Shown in pieces: positions 34,156 through 57,329 of a stretch of 64,000 nucleotides of DNA. A program made the translations under genes and the position numbers. Position 1 is the stretch's first letter. Each line of letters starts with the position of its first letter. The notes under the pieces were generated by a model that was not told the origin of the DNA, searched no databases, and was given only the letters and a program-made list of their open reading frames with translations. This stretch comes from a virus (Duplodnaviria; Caudoviricetes), in the IMG/VR virus record IMGVR_UViG_3300028483_000002, positions 9,580-73,579 of that record; one strand, written 5' to 3'.

Positions 34156-35058
34156 TTACTCCTTATTTTCTTTTTCTATTTCTGCTTCTGCGTCGATTCC
34201 AGAAATTTCTTTGAATATTTCGTTATCCCAATTTGGCAAGCCAAGAAGTTTTTTATGTTCTTCTGTGTTTGCTTTATCCCAAGCAAGTTTAAACGCTTCT
34301 TTGTATTCAAGAGTTTTTAGAAAGCCACCACAAATTTCTATCTCTTGTTTGTGCTCTTTTTTTTCTTCATCAGTAGCAGTGTCGTGAGATACCCAAACAG
34401 TTAAGTCAAAGTAAAGAAATGATGGGAAATTAATATCATTTCTTTCAATAGCAGTTTCTTTATTGAACATTCTAAGTAATGGTGTGCTGGTATTGAAAAA
34501 ACCACTATTCCAATCGCCACTATTCCAATTGCCACTATTATAACTTCCACTGTTATAACTTCCAGTATTGTAAAAACCACTATTCCAATCGCCACTATTC
34601 CAATTGCCACTATTACGATCGCCACTATTACAATTGCCACTATTACGATCGCCACTATTCCAATTGCCACTATTATAACTTCCACTGTTATAACTTCCAG
34701 TATTGTAAAAACCACTATTCCAATCGCCACTATTCCAATCGCCACTATTACAATTGCCACTATTAATCAGTTCTTTTTTTTCATCTCCTGTAATCTCACG
34801 GAGGATTGTAATTGAATTCGTTCCGTACTTGTCGCCCTGTTTTATATATTCACCTGCGATAATTTCGCAAATTCTCGATTCTGAAAGTTTGTAATTACTT
34901 TCTTTTTTTATAGCAAGAAGTTCTCGACAAAAATGAAATACTTTGTCAGTACAACATTCTAAATCTTCTTTTTTAGTGTCTTTTGTATAAGTTTTTCCCA
35001 CTTCAAACTGGAATCCTCGACAACATAAATTTTGGTCAAATGCTTTATACCCTATCAT
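34156..35058 (-). CDS. Pentapeptide (NSGxx) repeat phage protein
   Basis: MIGYKAFD..L.CRGFQFEVGKTY N-terminus, a run of NSG(D/N)(W/C/R)/NTGSY repeats, and C-terminal LPNWDNEIFKEISGID. Confidence 0.8.
   Translation of the reverse strand: MIGYKAFDQNLCCRGFQFEVGKTYTKDTKKEDLECCTDKVFHFCRELLAIKKESNYKLSESRICEIIAGEYIKQGDKYGTNSITILREITGDEKKELINSGNCNSGDWNSGDWNSGFYNTGSYNSGSYNSGNWNSGDRNSGNCNSGDRNSGNWNSGDWNSGFYNTGSYNSGSYNSGNWNSGDWNSGFFNTSTPLLRMFNKETAIERNDINFPSFLYFDLTVWVSHDTATDEEKKEHKQEIEICGGFLKTLEYKEAFKLAWDKANTEEHKKLLGLPNWDNEIFKEISGIDAEAEIEKENKE
34497..34765. repeat. Tandem 15-bp repeat array (about 18 units) encoding the pentapeptides
   Basis: Recurrent CCACTATT(C/A)CAAT(C/T)G units with a higher-order duplicated block. 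Confidence 0.9.
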
Positions 35059-35530
35059 AAATTTCCCCTGTCAATTTATAAAATTCTTCCATATCCACAA
35101 AGTCTACAATTTCATCACATTTTCGCCGATTGTATAATTCTTTCTGGACCCGGCAGTAAAACTATCCTTCACTAATTTTTCTGTTTGTTCACTAAAGGCC
35201 ATAATATCCCCCATAAAAAATACGGTTTGATATTTCGCACGTTTGTAGTCGATTTATCCATTGCAGAACTACCTCTGTGTTATCCCCACCACCGTAAGGT
35301 CAAAACTAAAAAGGTTAATAGAAATAAAAAAAATATTTTATGCACAACTTTTTTTTCGGAAGTTGCTACCGAGATTTATTTTAAATAGTCAACGACTATT
35401 TTTTTTAACAAAAAAAGCTAACCACATTTCTTCTCCCAAAAGGAGGTTGCGTAAGAAATATGATTAGCAAAAATTTTTCAACTTAAAAAATCACGCAACA
35501 CAATTTCTTAAACTGAAACAAAAAAAATAA

Positions 35531-35603
35531 TTTACATTTGTAAACTTAACTTATAATAAATCACAGGTGTTATTTTGTCAAGATTAATTTTAACATTTGT
35601 AAA
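35531..35603 (-). promoter_or_regulatory. Sigma70 promoter flanked by two TT(T/A)ACATTTGTAAA operators
   Basis: TTGACA-17-TATTAT; operators at 35531-35544 and 35590-35603. Confidence 0.75.
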
Positions 35604-45103: not shown

Positions 45104-45191
45104 AAAAAAAGCCGCCCTGAATCCCACAATTTCAAGACGGCCCAAATTGCTTTTAAAGCAATTAAGCAATGTGGGCAAACTTAATCACTCT
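45104..45191 (-). promoter_or_regulatory. Leader RNA element C: hairpin plus terminator with complementary loops, upstream of recT
   Basis: AGAGTGATTAAG/CTTAATTGCTTT stem with CCCACA in the loop; terminator GCCGTCTTGAA/TTCAGGGCGGC followed by T7 with TGTGGG in the loop. Confidence 0.6.
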
Positions 45192-48301: not shown

Positions 48302-48778
48302 TTAGTTCCCTCCATTTAATGATTCAGGCAAAGCGTTTGTTTTTAATGTTTCTTCTGTAACTGAATTAAAGAAATCAATGTTTAGTTTCTTTGCGTTTTT
48401 CCAAAATTTAAGAAGAAATTGAAATTCTTCGTTTTCTGAATTTCTAATTCTTTCCCGAAATTCCTGTGTGGCATCAGTCAATCTTCTTTCTAGCATCATG
48501 TAATTTTTCATAATTTTATTGCGTCGTAAATTCAATGCTGCCATTTCTCTGTTGTAGATGTTTGAGCCAGGAATCATTCTTGTTGTTGCAATAAATTCAG
48601 TCTTTTCCTGTTTTAAATCATGAAGGGAATCTTTTACTTTTCTAAAGATTTTACTTATCTCTTTTGGAGATAAAAGATCAAGTTCCTTTTCTGAAAACTG
48701 ATAGTTTTCAAAATTTGAAATTTGTAGTAAACTATTTTTTGAGTTTACCGATACTTTAATTGTAGGTGTCATAGACAT
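48302..48778 (-). CDS. Hypothetical protein (first gene behind RNA element A)
   Basis: ORF with SD AGGAG. Confidence 0.45.
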   Translation of the reverse strand: MSMTPTIKVSVNSKNSLLQISNFENYQFSEKELDLLSPKEISKIFRKVKDSLHDLKQEKTEFIATTRMIPGSNIYNREMAALNLRRNKIMKNYMMLERRLTDATQEFRERIRNSENEEFQFLLKFWKNAKKLNIDFFNSVTEETLKTNALPESLNGGN

Positions 48779-48844
48779 CTCCTATAAATTTTCGTGTTAC
48801 TAGGTGCTTGGCGGTGCGATAAGTAACACGAAAGAAATAAAAAA

Positions 48845-48965
48845 GGCTCAAGCCTTTTCCATCACAAAAAGTCTTGAGCCAGAGGTCTACACACCCACTT
48901 TTATAGTATCGGTGATCACCCTGACAGAGCAATCAAGTAGTGTGATGGACCTGCTTCATTACTCT
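48845..48965 (-). ncRNA. Structured RNA element A (leader or sRNA, C4/CI-like logic)
   Basis: Paralog of 50490-50606; hairpin loop GTCCATCACA is complementary to terminator loop TGTGATGG. Confidence 0.65.
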
Positions 48966-48974
48966 ATAGGTTGT

Positions 48975-49057
48975 AAAGATGAATATTCGTCTTTACATTT
49001 GTCATTATAGTTAAGTATTTATCTTTGTCAAGTTAAAAAAGATAAATATTCATCTTT
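48975..49057 (-). promoter_or_regulatory. Promoter TTGACA-16-TATAAT with palindromic operators AAAGATRAATATTCRTCTTT
   Basis: Operators at 48975-48994 and 49038-49057; -35 at 49026-49031. Confidence 0.7.
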
Positions 49058-49066
49058 TTTTTAATT

Positions 49067-49336
49067 ATGGACTTCTACGAAAACGTAAAAATTCTTGTAA
49101 AAAAACATGGGCTTCAGTTAATACCTTTGTTGGAATCGTTAGGAATTAACTATTCAACTTACAAAGGGTACAAACAGTATGGCAATCTTCCAAGAGCTGA
49201 CGAAGCGGTGAAGATTGCTCAAGCCCTCGAAACCACTGTTGAATACTTAGTAACTGGTAATAAACCAGACCTAAGTTCTAAAACAAAATCTCTAATAAAT
49301 GAATTAGAGATGACCATAAATAAGTACAAAAACTAA
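49067..49336 (+). CDS. XRE/CI-like HTH repressor
   Basis: LGINYSTYKGYKQYGNLPRADEAVKIAQALETTVEYLVTG. Confidence 0.85.
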   Translation: MDFYENVKILVKKHGLQLIPLLESLGINYSTYKGYKQYGNLPRADEAVKIAQALETTVEYLVTGNKPDLSSKTKSLINELEMTINKYKN

Positions 49337-50184
49337 GCATCTGGTTGAATAGATTCGTCTATTTCTGCATTGAATTTCTTCGCAAGATAAACAAGACCTT
49401 TTCCAGTAACCAATGTTACAGGTTTACTTCCAATCTCATCGTTAATATGTTTAACTACAACTTTGAAATGACCTGAGTTTATTTGGTCTTGCTTAGGAGA
49501 GTTATCTTGATTTAATACTTGTAAGGTTCTTAGATTCTGAAATAAAGTTTTGTTACCATAAGGGAGTTTTAATGCTTTTGCAGCCTGATTAACTGTATAA
49601 CAGCCTTTGCCATCAGCAATGCGATTAAGAGCTGTTTCTGCTAATTCAGCTCTGACTGTTAATTCTTCAATTCTTTTATCTCGATATGCATCTAAAAGTT
49701 TTTGTTCTTCTTCTCTTTTCTTTAATAAAGCAAAAAACTCTAAATCATTGCCAATTTGAGAAACAACAGAGTTATCTTTTAAATTATTACGTTCTCTCAA
49801 TTTTAATTTTATTAAGGTTGCTTGTTTTTCAGTTAATAAGTAACCACCTTGATTATTTTTTTTGACTTCGCCAAGTACTTGCCGGAGTTCGTTTATATTA
49901 TTTTTAATTGTACTTTCTGCTACTTTTAAGTCATTTGCTAATTCTTTTACAGTTACAACTACAGCAACTTCTGCTGCCTTTTTTATTTTTAATGCAGGTA
50001 TTAGGTCGGTAGTAGTTTCTAACCTACAAGGCTGCCTTGTAGGTTCTAGAGTTTCTGCAACTTGTTTCACTGTCATTGTTTTTTGATTTTGGTTAATTTC
50101 TAATTCGTTCATGTTCTGTTGAACAACCTCTTGTTTTTGTGATAAAATAACACTTGGTTTAGTCGATGATTTTATTGTAGTCAT
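49333..50184 (-). CDS. Antirepressor-like protein (HTH plus KilA-C)
   Basis: TVKELANDLKVAESTI; YTVNQAAKAL...GNKTLF..LR...LVTGKGLVYL. Confidence 0.75.
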   Translation of the reverse strand: MTTIKSSTKPSVILSQKQEVVQQNMNELEINQNQKTMTVKQVAETLEPTRQPCRLETTTDLIPALKIKKAAEVAVVVTVKELANDLKVAESTIKNNINELRQVLGEVKKNNQGGYLLTEKQATLIKLKLRERNNLKDNSVVSQIGNDLEFFALLKKREEEQKLLDAYRDKRIEELTVRAELAETALNRIADGKGCYTVNQAAKALKLPYGNKTLFQNLRTLQVLNQDNSPKQDQINSGHFKVVVKHINDEIGSKPVTLVTGKGLVYLAKKFNAEIDESIQPDA

Positions 50185-50248
50185 TAACTATCTCCTTTTT
50201 AAAATTAGAGAAGTTAAGGGTTTTTATCTCTAATTTTTAAGATAAAAA

Positions 50249-50354
50249 ACGACCCTAAAAACTTTCCTACATTGCAACTGCAATGTTAACCCCAGGAAAG
50301 TTTTTAAGGTCGTAAGTTGTTTTACCAACTTAGAAATGGGGTTAAAATTTCTAA
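50249..50354 (-). promoter_or_regulatory. Leader RNA element D: 5' hairpin plus long bulged terminator
   Basis: Loop TTTAACCCC; terminator ACGACCTTAAAAACTTTCCT/AGGAAAGTTTTTAGGGTCGT followed by a T tract, carrying a GGGGTTAA bulge. Confidence 0.6.
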
Positions 50355-50375
50355 AGTGGCAAACTAACCTTATAA

Positions 50376-50446
50376 TTAACGTTTGTAAACTACAATTTAA
50401 TATAAAATACATCTGTTGCTTTGTCAATAATATTTACATTTGTTAA
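50376..50446 (-). promoter_or_regulatory. Promoter TTGACA-17-TATATT with two operators; duplicated at 57338-57412
   Basis: Near-identical approximately 70-bp block; operators TTAACGTTTGTAAA and TTTACATTTGTTAA. Confidence 0.8.
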
Positions 50447-50482
50447 TTTTTATTAAAGTAATTTATGTATAAACCGATACAT

Positions 50483-50606
50483 AAAAAAAGGCACAAGCCT
50501 TATCTTCCCTTTAAGACTTGTGCCAAACGGAGTAAAACCTAATATAGGATGGCGATTACCCTCGGCAGAGCAATCAAATAATAGGGAAGCCTTATTTCAT
50601 TGCTCT
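50483..50606 (-). ncRNA. Structured RNA element B (stand-alone sRNA of about 125 nt)
   Basis: Its own promoter (TTGACA 50637-50642, 17 nt, TATATA) puts +1 at the first hairpin; ends in terminator GGCACAAG/CTTGTGCC followed by T7; loops CTTCCCT and AGGGAAG. Confidence 0.7.
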
Positions 50607-50681
50607 AGTTATATATATAATACACATTTGTTTAATTGTCAATAAACTTTTGTGTATTAATTATTAATATTTAAAATTATT

Positions 50682-51008
50682 ATGGAATTTTCTGCTGAAT
50701 TAATTATTAATCGCATAAAAGATTTATGTGAATTGAAAGAATTAGAAAAAATAAGTATTTCTCCCCAAGTAGTTTCAAATTGGAAATCAAGAAATACAGT
50801 GCCAAAAGCAGATGATTTATACAGAATTGCAAAATATTTAAATGTAACAATGGAATGGCTGCTAACCGGAGAGAATCCAAATACAGAACTTCCAGAAGAT
50901 ATTCAAAAATCAGTTCAAAAAATGCTAACTTTAACCGAAAAGCAACGTGAACCAATTAATGTGCTTATTGACGGACAAGTAAATTATTGGAAAAATATAG
51001 ATAGATAG
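50682..51008 (+). CDS. XRE/CI-like HTH repressor
   Basis: ISPQVVSNWKSRNTVPKADDLYRIAKYLNVTMEWLLTG. Confidence 0.85.
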   Translation: MEFSAELIINRIKDLCELKELEKISISPQVVSNWKSRNTVPKADDLYRIAKYLNVTMEWLLTGENPNTELPEDIQKSVQKMLTLTEKQREPINVLIDGQVNYWKNIDR

Positions 51009-57255: not shown

Positions 57256-57329
57256 TGGCGGGCGTAGGGCTCGAACCTACAATCTCTGGATTATGATTCC
57301 AGTGAGTTAACCAATTTCTCCAACCCGCT
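57256..57329 (-). tRNA. tRNA-Met(CAU) with initiator-like features, CCA not encoded
   Basis: AGCGGGT/GCCCGCC acceptor stem, GAG/CTC D stem, CTGGA-ATCATAA-TCCAG anticodon arm, GTAGG-TTCGAGC-CCTAC T arm. Confidence 0.9.

What the first reader, a model, noticed from the sequence alone, without database searches (positions are those of the whole stretch)
48845..50606. Paralogous sRNA/leader pair with covarying kissing-loop address codes in front of antirepressor genes
Elements A (48845-48965) and B (50490-50606) share one architecture on the minus strand. P1 is AGAG(T/C)AAT/ATTGCTCT with a G-G mismatch, a covarying upper stem (AAGCAG/CTACTT versus AAATAA/TTATTT) and a 10-nt loop. A conserved core CTCTGYC(G)AGGGTRATCRCC follows, then a small CTATA hairpin, then a terminator GGC(T/A)CAAG/CTTG(A/T)GCC with a U tract. 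In each element the P1 loop is complementary to its own terminator loop, and the two codes differ entirely: CCATCACA/TGTGATGG in A and CTTCCCT/AGGGAAG in B. B has its own promoter with +1 at P1. The logic recalls P1 C4 and P4 CI antisense immunity RNAs, which control antirepressor or lytic transcripts, but I do not recognise this sequence or fold. It may be a new family of orthogonally coded RNA immunity switches, and it is the strongest candidate for a novel system in this window.
Basis: partly seen in the sequence, partly recalled or inferred. Interest (0 to 1): 0.88.

Follow-up and report, generated by a model that had tools for sequence, protein, structure and literature searches.

The report
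Kissing-loop terminator leader RNAs in phage
Two early operons of this gut phage start with a roughly 125-base folded RNA whose first hairpin tip base-pairs with the tip of its own transcription-stop hairpin; nine related copies keep this pairing with different letters, so it is a real RNA control element absent from Rfam, and what it does is untested.

Summary
Elements A (48965-48839) and B (50606-50483), minus strand, each have a sigma70-like promoter, a 15-bp hairpin P1 with a 10-nt loop, a middle domain and an intrinsic terminator. The P1 loop is complementary to the terminator loop.

I found seven more members: K2 in this window and six in related IMG/VR phages. All nine keep a 6-9 bp loop-loop helix using nine different sequences. 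Two copies that are 95% identical differ by two adjacent compensatory pairs. The stems also covary.

No Rfam family matches, GenBank phages hold no look-alike, and two literature searches found no description.

A second design, hairpin loop against a 5' bulge in a long terminator, occurs at D and K1. So all five consensus -35 promoters between 35 and 51 kb on the minus strand carry mutually orthogonal leaders.

The link to antirepressor genes is only partial: K2 precedes recT.

Function is inferred. I favour a cis gate on each leader's own terminator, possibly with code-specific feedback from the terminated RNA.

This scan has flagged the same design on other phage DNA: notes from at least 88 genomes.

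The parts
49004..49031 (-). Promoter of leader A: TTGACA, 16-bp spacer, TATAAT (12/12). An operator-like TGACAAATGTAAAG lies just downstream.
48972..48997 (-). Extra 5' hairpin of the A transcript, between the predicted start and P1.
48926..48965 (-). A, hairpin P1: 8-bp lower stem, G-G mismatch, 6-bp upper stem, 10-nt loop. Loop code CCATCACA at 48948-48941.
48914..48922 (-). A, 'core' AGGGTGATC. It is a 9-bp alternative partner (3 G-U pairs) of the P1 3' strand GATTGCTCT.
48839..48880 (-). A, intrinsic terminator with U tract. Loop code TGTGATGG at 48866-48859.
50614..50642 (-). Promoter of leader B: TTGACA, 17-bp spacer, TATATA. It is divergent from the CI-like repressor gene at 50682-51008 (+). 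P1 begins about 7 nt after the -10.
50567..50606 (-). B, hairpin P1. Loop code CTTCCCT at 50589-50583.
50554..50562 (-). B, 'core' AGGGTAATC, the alternative partner of the P1 3' strand.
50483..50524 (-). B, intrinsic terminator with U tract. Loop code AGGGAAG at 50510-50504.
45104..45191 (-). K2, a third type-1 member with no middle hairpin. P1 AGAGTGATTAAG/CTTAATTGCTTT carries loop code CCCACA (45175-45170). The terminator loop carries TGTGGG (45128-45123). The recT ribosome-binding site follows the U tract.
50238..50427 (-). Promoter plus leader D (type 2). The loop of a long 5' hairpin (TTAACCCC, 50345-50338) is complementary to a 5' bulge (GGGGTTAA, 50293-50286) in a terminator whose lower stem is about 20 bp. 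It precedes the Ant gene at 49333-50184.
35405..35581 (-). Promoter plus leader K1 (type 2). Hairpin loop GTTGCGT (35499-35493) is complementary to terminator bulge ACGCAAC (35452-35446). It lies between terL and a pentapeptide-repeat gene.

Best explanation
A and B belong to a family of promoter-proximal 'kissing-loop terminator leaders'.

Host RNA polymerase starts at a repressor-flanked sigma70-type promoter and makes hairpin P1 first. About 60-75 nt later (42 nt in K2, and shorter in the other copies that lack a middle hairpin) it makes an intrinsic terminator whose loop is the Watson-Crick complement of the P1 loop. I propose that this loop-loop helix forms in cis on the nascent RNA and sets what fraction of polymerases pass the terminator into the early genes (antirepressor-like genes, recET, replication genes). 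Each leader has a private code, so the five leaders expressed together do not mispair.

My lean on direction, about 55:45: the loop helix forms as soon as the terminator loop emerges and before the 3' strand of the terminator is made. A stem of 13-20 bp then has to wind up inside a loop that is already closed. This delays terminator folding and lets some polymerases read through. Terminated leader RNA that accumulates presents the same terminator loop on a pre-formed hairpin. It could occupy nascent P1 loops in trans and so restore termination, giving code-specific negative feedback.

The P1/Alt alternative pairing would modulate how the P1 loop is presented.

Shown here: the anatomy, the covariation, the orthogonality of the codes, and the alternative pairing of P1's 3' strand with the core. 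The leader position (promoter motif upstream, ribosome-binding site right after the U tract) is read from the sequence. Inferred: that the RNA is made, that the loop helix affects termination, the direction of that effect, and any action in trans.
For: 1. P1 and terminator stems. On the model-guided alignment of six members, 99.4% of cells are paired, 12 of 26 pairs show compensatory change, and 0 of 500 shuffles reach this. Ten wobble cells pair only on this strand, which argues for an RNA transcribed from the minus strand.
2. Loop-loop helix. It is 6-9 bp in 9 of 9 type-1 members, with nine different codes. Non-cognate pairs average 3.2 bp. Per-element P is 5e-5 to 7e-3 against random genomic windows.
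3. L106b and L113b are 95% identical, yet their codes differ by two adjacent compensatory pairs: CCGCAAC/GTTGCGG versus CCGTGAC/GTCACGG.
4. Cognate loop duplex energies fall in a narrow band, -10.5 to -14.1 kcal/mol. Non-cognate pairs average -3.9. The five leaders of this phage are mutually orthogonal, with the best cross pair at -6.9.
5. Leader layout. A sigma70-like promoter lies upstream of every member, and the ribosome-binding site of the first gene follows the U tract directly in K2, F, L095, L106b and L107a.
6. All five minus-strand promoters with a consensus -35 between 35 and 51 kb carry such a leader. Immediate-early expression by unmodified polymerase therefore needs read-through.
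7. For cis action: in the second design, the hairpin loop sits a constant 29-33 nt upstream of the terminator base in 5 of 5 bulged terminators, and none has a match downstream. In type 1, P1 and the terminator are of similar height, 13-16 bp by my count from the folds.
8. An alternative hairpin between the P1 3' strand and the 'core' is seen in the members. It is 7-9 bp in A, B, C, F, K2 and L095; all mismatches relative to a perfect DNA palindrome are G-U on this strand; F keeps the pairing through compensatory changes. In L106b, L113b and L107a it is 6 bp by my own reading; the script cut those partners off. This fits a conditional switch.
Against: - There is no evidence that the RNA is made, and no termination data of any kind.
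- I found no classical antiterminator pairing that sequesters a terminator strand (inspection).
- The terminators look strong by themselves: a GC-rich base and 6-8 U.
- The similar heights of the two helices also fit a loop helix that coexists with the folded terminator and locks it. That is the opposite direction to my lean.
- Loops evolve much faster than stems between A, B and C, and orthologous B and C carry unrelated codes. That pattern is what one expects of trans-acting specificity determinants.
- The topological-delay argument is my inference and has not been computed.
Confidence: 0.45

Rival explanations
1. Trans-acting immunity RNA. The terminated RNA of about 125 nt is the effector. 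Through its loops it binds nascent transcripts carrying the same code, from the same or a superinfecting phage, and forces premature termination before the antirepressor genes. This is how P4 CI RNA works (PMC4825925), and N15 CA RNA as I recall it. The complementarity within one molecule simply reflects effector and target lying in one transcript.
For: - Six of nine type-1 members precede Ant-like or Bro-like genes.
- Stems are about 90% conserved among A, B and C, while their loops differ at about half of the positions.
- The orthologous B and C leaders sit next to CI genes that are 75% identical, yet carry unrelated codes.
- The codes are orthogonal within one phage.
- There is precedent for terminated or processed leader RNAs acting on their own longer transcript: P4 CI and IsrK (PMC4825925) and StxS (PMC7547250).
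Against: - The promoters carry operator-like palindromes and face repressor genes, so the RNA is probably not made in a lysogen, where an immunity RNA is needed.
- There is one partner only, and it lies in the terminator loop. No second target is found at a ribosome-binding site or downstream.
- A trans RNA would have under a second to catch a terminator loop.
- K2 (recT) and K1 (a gene after terL) use the same design without any antirepressor gene.
- The constant spacing in type 2 has no explanation under a purely trans role.
Confidence: 0.25
2. The loop helix is a tertiary lock on a stable small RNA whose real job lies elsewhere. It could be a terminated by-product RNA that has its own targets, or head-to-tail dimers or multimers held by the two complementary loops, as in phi29 pRNA. 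It would have little effect on the termination decision.
For: - Intramolecular end-to-end kissing looks strained with linkers that short. This is my inference from the folds.
- StxS shows that by-product leader RNAs can gain functions of their own (PMC7547250).
Against: - No other complementary targets are found in the phage.
- Codes differ between near-identical phages, which is hard to square with a conserved external target.
- The position directly in front of ribosome-binding sites points to control of the downstream gene.
Confidence: 0.15
3. A riboswitch-like or protein-responsive attenuator. A ligand or a phage or host protein binds the middle domain or P1 and stabilises or breaks the loop helix to the expression-platform hairpin, as the L5-L13 kissing loop does in cobalamin riboswitches.
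For: - The element has a leader layout.
- It has a bistable P1/Alt pairing.
- There are conserved non-Watson-Crick positions in both helices.
Against: - The middle domain is not conserved. It is absent in K2 and L095 and different in F and L106b.
- The loop sequences are hypervariable rather than conserved.
- No Rfam riboswitch matches.
Confidence: 0.08
4. A DNA-level feature or chance. The inverted repeats would be operator half-sites or recombination sites, not RNA structure.
For: - The elements lie next to repressor genes.
- In the L106 phage, the P1-stem word AATTGCTT also occurs as palindromes around the promoter.
Against: - Wobble pairs are consistent only on the transcribed strand.
- The complementary words sit precisely in the loops of two other covarying hairpins in nine members, with a joint chance probability far below 1e-10.
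- The likely operators are different words at the promoters.
Confidence: 0.03

Closest known systems
Satellite phage P4 CI RNA (seqB with seqA and seqC); by my recollection also N15 CA RNA
   Same: It is a small RNA derived from the untranslated leader of an early or anti-immunity operon. It is complementary to other segments of the same transcript, and the output is premature transcription termination (PMC4825925, discussion, for P4).
   Different: CI is cut out by processing and has two linear targets, one upstream and one downstream. Here there is a single partner, both partners are hairpin loops, the target is the terminator's own loop, and the RNA would end by termination rather than processing. 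No sequence or Rfam similarity was found.
P1/P7 c4 antisense RNA with a1/b1 and a2/b2 (Rfam C4 family)
   Same: The loop sequences are specificity codes that differ between related phages while the stems stay the same. It sits in the leader of an antirepressor operon (my knowledge).
   Different: c4 blocks the ribosome-binding site of icd and acts through translation and Rho. It has two loop pairs. Here no code copy lies at a ribosome-binding site and there is no hit to the C4 model.
Lambdoid PR' - 6S RNA - tR' unit, and its StxS derivative
   Same: A strong promoter is followed within about 100-200 nt by an intrinsic terminator ahead of the genes, so a short terminated RNA is the default product. 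StxS shows that such RNAs can be functional (PMC7547250).
   Different: The lambdoid unit is released by the Q protein loaded at the promoter, and no loop-loop pairing is known there. Here five early promoters, not one late promoter, carry the unit, and no Q-like gene was identified.
Zipper-type attenuator cATT of pLS20-family conjugation operons (PMC13401043)
   Same: It is a leader with an upstream hairpin, a middle hairpin and an intrinsic terminator, in which upstream and terminator sequences are complementary.
   Different: In the zipper type the complementarity covers the stem strands and forms an antiterminator by extending the central stem. Here it is confined to the loops, and both hairpins can stay folded.
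Cobalamin riboswitch L5-L13 kissing loop
   Same: A kissing loop links an upstream domain to the hairpin loop of the expression platform (my knowledge).
   Different: The riboswitch loops are conserved and the contact depends on a ligand. Here the loops are hypervariable, no conserved aptamer exists, and Rfam gives no hit.
Antisense-RNA attenuation of pT181 and pIP501 replication leaders
   Same: Loop-loop kissing with a nascent leader decides whether an intrinsic terminator forms, and the loops define specificity groups (my knowledge).
   Different: The regulator there is a countertranscript from the opposite strand, and it works by freeing a terminator strand from a pre-emptor. Here both partners are on the sense transcript and I found no pre-emptor.

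Membership tests
Rfam C4 antisense RNA / c4-a1b1 (P1, P7) | Match to the covariance model at or near the gathering score | tested here: not met
   cmscan of the whole window at gathering thresholds found only a tRNA. A scan of 48700-50750 at E up to 10 gave only sub-threshold, unrelated hits on or near the elements.
Rfam C4 antisense RNA / c4-a1b1 (P1, P7) | A second complementary target covering the ribosome-binding site of the first downstream gene | tested here: not met
   Each code occurs once as a pair inside its own element. The other copies in the window are scattered and none lies near a ribosome-binding site of the early region.
P4 CI RNA type immunity | One effector segment with complementary targets both upstream and downstream in the same leader | tested here: not met
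   There is only one partner per code, and it lies in the terminator loop.
P4 CI RNA type immunity | Termination of nascent transcripts depends on the small RNA supplied in trans | not testable with these tools
   This needs in vitro or in vivo termination assays.
Promoter-proximal intrinsic-terminator leader (attenuator class) | Promoter, then a GC-based hairpin with a U tract, before the first gene of the operon | tested here: met
Promoter-proximal intrinsic-terminator leader (attenuator class) | A mutually exclusive antiterminator pairing that uses a terminator strand | tested here: not met
   The only conserved alternative pairing, P1 3' strand with the core, does not touch the terminator.
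Kissing-loop (loop-loop pseudoknot) RNA | Watson-Crick complementarity between two hairpin loops, kept by compensatory change | tested here: met
   All 9 of 9 members have 6-9 bp with nine codes. L106b and L113b differ by two compensatory pairs.
Zipper-type attenuator (pLS20 cATT) | Upstream hairpin and terminator stem strands pair to extend the central stem | tested here: not met
   By inspecting the arms flanking the middle hairpin, I found no extension beyond the loops. The feature is defined in PMC13401043.
Cobalamin or other riboswitch with a kissing loop | Conserved aptamer core | tested here: not met
   There is no Rfam hit, and the middle domain is absent or unrelated in K2, L095, F and L106b.

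The most novel reading that the evidence does not exclude
These leaders are a widespread and so far undescribed class of phage transcription gate. An upstream hairpin 'addresses' its own terminator through a private loop-loop code. The helix forms before the terminator can wind up and so decides read-through. The terminated RNA feeds back in trans only on leaders carrying the same code. This would give a phage several independent, orthogonal RNA-only switches, and, between phages, an RNA-level immunity specificity.
Probability: 0.3. Interest if true: 0.9.

Novelty: new variant of a known kind. Interest (0 to 1): 0.72.

Why it matters
If the loop-loop helix controls termination, this would be a compact, protein-free way to gate operons, with addresses that can be reprogrammed by changing 6-9 nt on each side. 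That bears on how temperate phages keep antirepressor and recombination genes silent and then release them. It would also offer ready-made orthogonal parts for synthetic transcription control. Nine natural codes with matched energies (-10.5 to -14 kcal/mol) are already a designed-looking set. The element matches no Rfam family, and two full-text literature searches found no description. Notes of this scan suggest the same design in many unrelated phage groups, so a general principle may have been overlooked.

Tried and rejected
- Rfam, gathering and E up to 10: nothing relevant.
- blastn of A and B against 50,697 GenBank phage records: no homolog.
- Exact-pattern scans of IMG/VR. The core pattern found nothing. 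The P1 pattern re-found only variant C.
- A pattern in which I set the gap wrongly returned five coding-region false positives, L043-L047.
- The single metagenome pattern scan re-found only the contig that carries C. Its other 22 hits are plain hairpins.
- The genome-contig scan with CI homologs gave no type-1 hit with model R1. The best CI match is a MAG filed under Bacteroidales. I do not take this as the host, because the promoters and Shine-Dalgarno sites look unlike Bacteroidota.
- Model hits in L102, L086, L094, L112 and at L113:1220 have no loop complementarity and are not members.
- A crude genome-wide test asked whether any terminator-like hairpin has a complement of 7 nt or more upstream rather than downstream. 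It showed no enrichment, because AT-rich chance matches swamp it. Only after restricting to strong terminators and loop positions did the elements stand out.
- Sequencing runs: no RNA holder was listed. DNA holders are animal-gut, mostly bovine, metagenomes with small shares. Laying four of them showed relatives covering A and B, with no listed change in the loop codes (most differences were not shown) and no information on expression.
- Relatives could not be drawn for a virus record.
- I looked for an antiterminator pairing with the terminator strands and for a zipper-type extension, and found none.
- Two literature searches for a described kissing-loop terminator leader found none.
Full report
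**What the window is.** The window lies in an IMG/VR virus record of 73.6 kb, estimated 91% complete. GC content is 31%.

**Gene context around the finding, read on the minus strand.**
- A CI-like HTH repressor gene lies at 50682-51008 on the plus strand.
- Diverging from it, in order: promoter, element B with its terminator, a second promoter (-35 at 50427), a second leader D with a terminator, and an Ant (KilAC) gene at 49333-50184.
- A second HTH gene lies at 49067-49336 on the plus strand.
- Diverging from that one: a 12/12 consensus promoter (49031-49004), element A with its terminator, orf158, two more Ant-type genes, a YqaJ exonuclease gene, another promoter and leader (K2), then recT, replication genes, terS and terL.

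- A and B align at 79-82% identity.
- Both fold as described, with energies well below dinucleotide shuffles: z = -3.65 for A and -5.22 for B.
- P1 is an 8-bp lower stem, a G-G mismatch, a 6-bp upper stem and a 10-nt loop. The terminator is an 8-bp GC-based stem extended by an A/U-rich upper stem, followed by 6-7 U.
- The loop words are complementary within each element: CCATCACA/TGTGATGG in A (9 bp with one flanking pair) and CTTCCCT/AGGGAAG in B. Each occurs as a pair inside its own element; the other copies in the window are scattered.

**Is it known?**
- Rfam 15 gives only a tRNA at gathering thresholds and nothing meaningful at E up to 10 on either strand of 48700-50750.
- GenBank phages hold no similar DNA.
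- Two full-text searches found no description of a hairpin loop pairing with a terminator loop in a phage leader.

**Homologs.**
- Loci encoding CI homologs and YqaJ homologs from IMG/VR were searched with covariance models built from A, B and C (R1) and then from six members (R2).
- True members are:
  - C (L018:2363-2490), next to a CI gene 75% identical to this phage's;
  - F (L105:5438-5565);
  - K2 in this window (45191-45104);
  - L106b and L113b;
  - L107a, which is the same sequence as L106a and L113a;
  - L095.
- Every member has a sigma70-like promoter upstream. In several, the ribosome-binding site of the first gene follows directly after the U tract.

**Covariation of the stems.** On the model-guided alignment, the P1 and terminator stems are 99.4% paired. 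Twelve of 26 pairs show changes on both sides, and no shuffle out of 500 or slid register comes close. Ten cells are G-U wobbles that would be A-C on the other strand, so the constraint acts on an RNA read from this strand.

**Covariation of the loop-loop helix.**
- All nine members have a perfect 6-9 bp helix between the P1 loop and the terminator loop. The nine codes are CCATCACA, CTTCCCT, CCCACA, CACCGC, CCACCAC, CCGCAAC, CCGTGAC, CAGGTCTT and CAGCGC.
- Non-cognate combinations average 3.2 bp.
- Against random windows from five phage genomes, the per-element probability is 5e-5 to 7e-3.
- L106b and L113b are 95% identical over 260 nt, yet differ in the code by two adjacent compensatory pairs.
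- A and F share a code apart from one compensatory T-A to C-G change.
- Cognate duplex energies are narrowly distributed, -10.5 to -14.1 kcal/mol, against a non-cognate mean of -3.9.

**A second design.**
- Leader D (50385-50238), leader K1 (35545-35405) and leaders in related phages (G001, G003, and a MAG contig, L023) have a long 5' hairpin. Its loop is complementary to a 7-8 nt bulge on the 5' side of a terminator with a 16-20 bp lower stem.
- Of five terminators with this bulged shape found in five phage genomes, all five have the complement 29-33 nt upstream of the terminator base. None has one downstream or far upstream.
- K1 and its G001 counterpart keep the same code while their stems differ.
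- With A, B and K2, this makes five leaders in this phage, one behind each consensus -35 promoter on the minus strand between 35 and 51 kb. They are mutually orthogonal. An earlier first-stage note of this scan (e1-5869497) listed the same five. I checked K1 and K2 myself.

**The 'conserved core'.**
Its meaning is different: it is a near copy of the P1 5' strand and pairs with the P1 3' strand.
- This alternative hairpin is 9 bp in A, B and C, and 7 bp in F, K2 and L095. In L106b, L113b and L107a it is 6 bp by my own reading; the script cut those partners off.
- F keeps the pairing through compensatory changes. All departures from a perfect palindrome are G-U on this strand.
- When the 5' strand is blocked in silico, this hairpin forms. 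The cost relative to P1 is 1.4-10 kcal/mol, and in A the two states are nearly equal in energy.
- The RNA therefore looks bistable. The alternative pairing does not touch the terminator.

**What it does (inference).**
- The layout is that of a leader attenuator, but no antiterminator pairing with a terminator strand exists.
- I favour a cis role, confidence 0.45. P1 is complete long before the terminator loop emerges. The loop helix can form at once, while the terminator 5' strand is still single-stranded and anchored at both ends. The 13-20 bp terminator stem must then wind inside a closed loop.
- I lean slightly to the view that this delays terminator folding and allows read-through. All five consensus -35 promoters in this stretch are followed by terminators that otherwise look strong, and immediate-early genes must be reached by unmodified polymerase.
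- The constant 29-33 nt spacing in the second design, and the similar heights of the two helices, also point to an intramolecular constraint.
- The opposite sign, a lock that strengthens termination, is not excluded.
- The terminated RNA could then compete in trans for nascent P1 loops in a code-specific way.

- In its favour: loops evolve fast between near-identical stems; orthologous B and C have different codes; and Ant-like genes follow 6 of 9 members.
- Against it: operator-like palindromes (TTTACAAATGTAAA and variants) flank these promoters, so I infer they are probably repressed in lysogens. There is no second target. K1 and K2 have no antirepressor gene downstream.

**Lesser rivals** are a structural or dimerising small RNA (0.15), a ligand- or protein-responsive switch (0.08), and a DNA-level feature or chance (0.03).

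**Comparison with known systems.**
- It works most like leader-derived regulatory RNAs of phage immunity and anti-immunity operons: P4 CI, summarised in PMC4825925, and P1 c4.
- It also resembles promoter-proximal terminated units such as PR'-6S-tR' and StxS (PMC7547250).
- It fails the testable membership features of both the c4 and the CI families.
- It differs from the pLS20 zipper attenuator (PMC13401043) because only the loops are complementary.
- I file it as a new variant of the leader-attenuator or leader-RNA kind. It is absent from Rfam, and my literature searches found no description.

**Relation to the rest of the scan.** This scan's notes report the same design in other phages. Ninety-five notes from at least 88 genomes match the words, and several were followed up, including one on a Treponema phage. 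Within the scan this is therefore a further, well-supported instance rather than a first sighting. I did not test those other cases.

Noticed in passing
window 48833-48790 (-); L018:2492-2535 (+); L018:3943-3990 (+): Between the leader terminator and the ribosome-binding site of orf158-type and Ant genes lies a 12-14 bp hairpin. Its stem differs between copies, but its 17-20 nt loop keeps a ..CGCCAA.. motif (CACCGCCAAGCAC, GTGTCGCCAAACTC, CCACTCGCCAAAGTT). It looks like a protein- or RNA-binding site on the 5' UTR.
   Followed up: no
window 35603-35590, 35552-35539, 50446-50433, 50392-50378, 49001-48989, 50632-50619: Variants of the palindrome TTTACAAATGTAAA flank or overlap the promoters of leaders K1, D, A and B. 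They are probably the operators of one repressor that controls all of them. The related phage G001 has different words (TACTAAAA/TTTTAGTA) at its CI-divergent promoter.
   Followed up: partly
L106:5500-5567 (+) and L113:5590-5655 (+): In this phage lineage the word of the P1 stem (AATTGCTT/AAGCAATT) also forms a perfect 8-bp hairpin or palindrome between the -10 and P1. It recurs upstream of the -35 and in the spacer. Several alternative RNA pairings, or operator sites, therefore share one word.
   Followed up: no
window 57256-57329 (-) and 57389 (-): A tRNA gene (Rfam, 53 bits) lies about 30 nt downstream of a promoter with a consensus TTGACA -35, a 17-bp spacer and TATATT.
   Followed up: no
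window 34156-35058 (-): Leader K1 lies after terL and precedes a DUF7666 plus pentapeptide-repeat protein. This looks like a moron-like cassette with its own operator-flanked promoter inside the packaging and structural region.
   Followed up: partly
L023:2335-2530 (-): A MAG contig filed under Bacteroidales ('Candidatus Scybalousia') carries a CI homolog, 70% identical over 64 residues, and a type-2 leader (loop CTCTCTC against terminator bulge GAGAGAG). The sigma70-type promoters and strong Shine-Dalgarno sites of these phages look unlike Bacteroidota, so the binning or the host assignment is doubtful.
   Followed up: no
L005:3950-3860 (-): Phage F has, next to its CI gene, another promoter followed by a short RNA and a terminator (CCCGGAG...CTCCGGG). 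I saw no loop complementarity there, so not every leader in these phages is of the kissing type.
   Followed up: no
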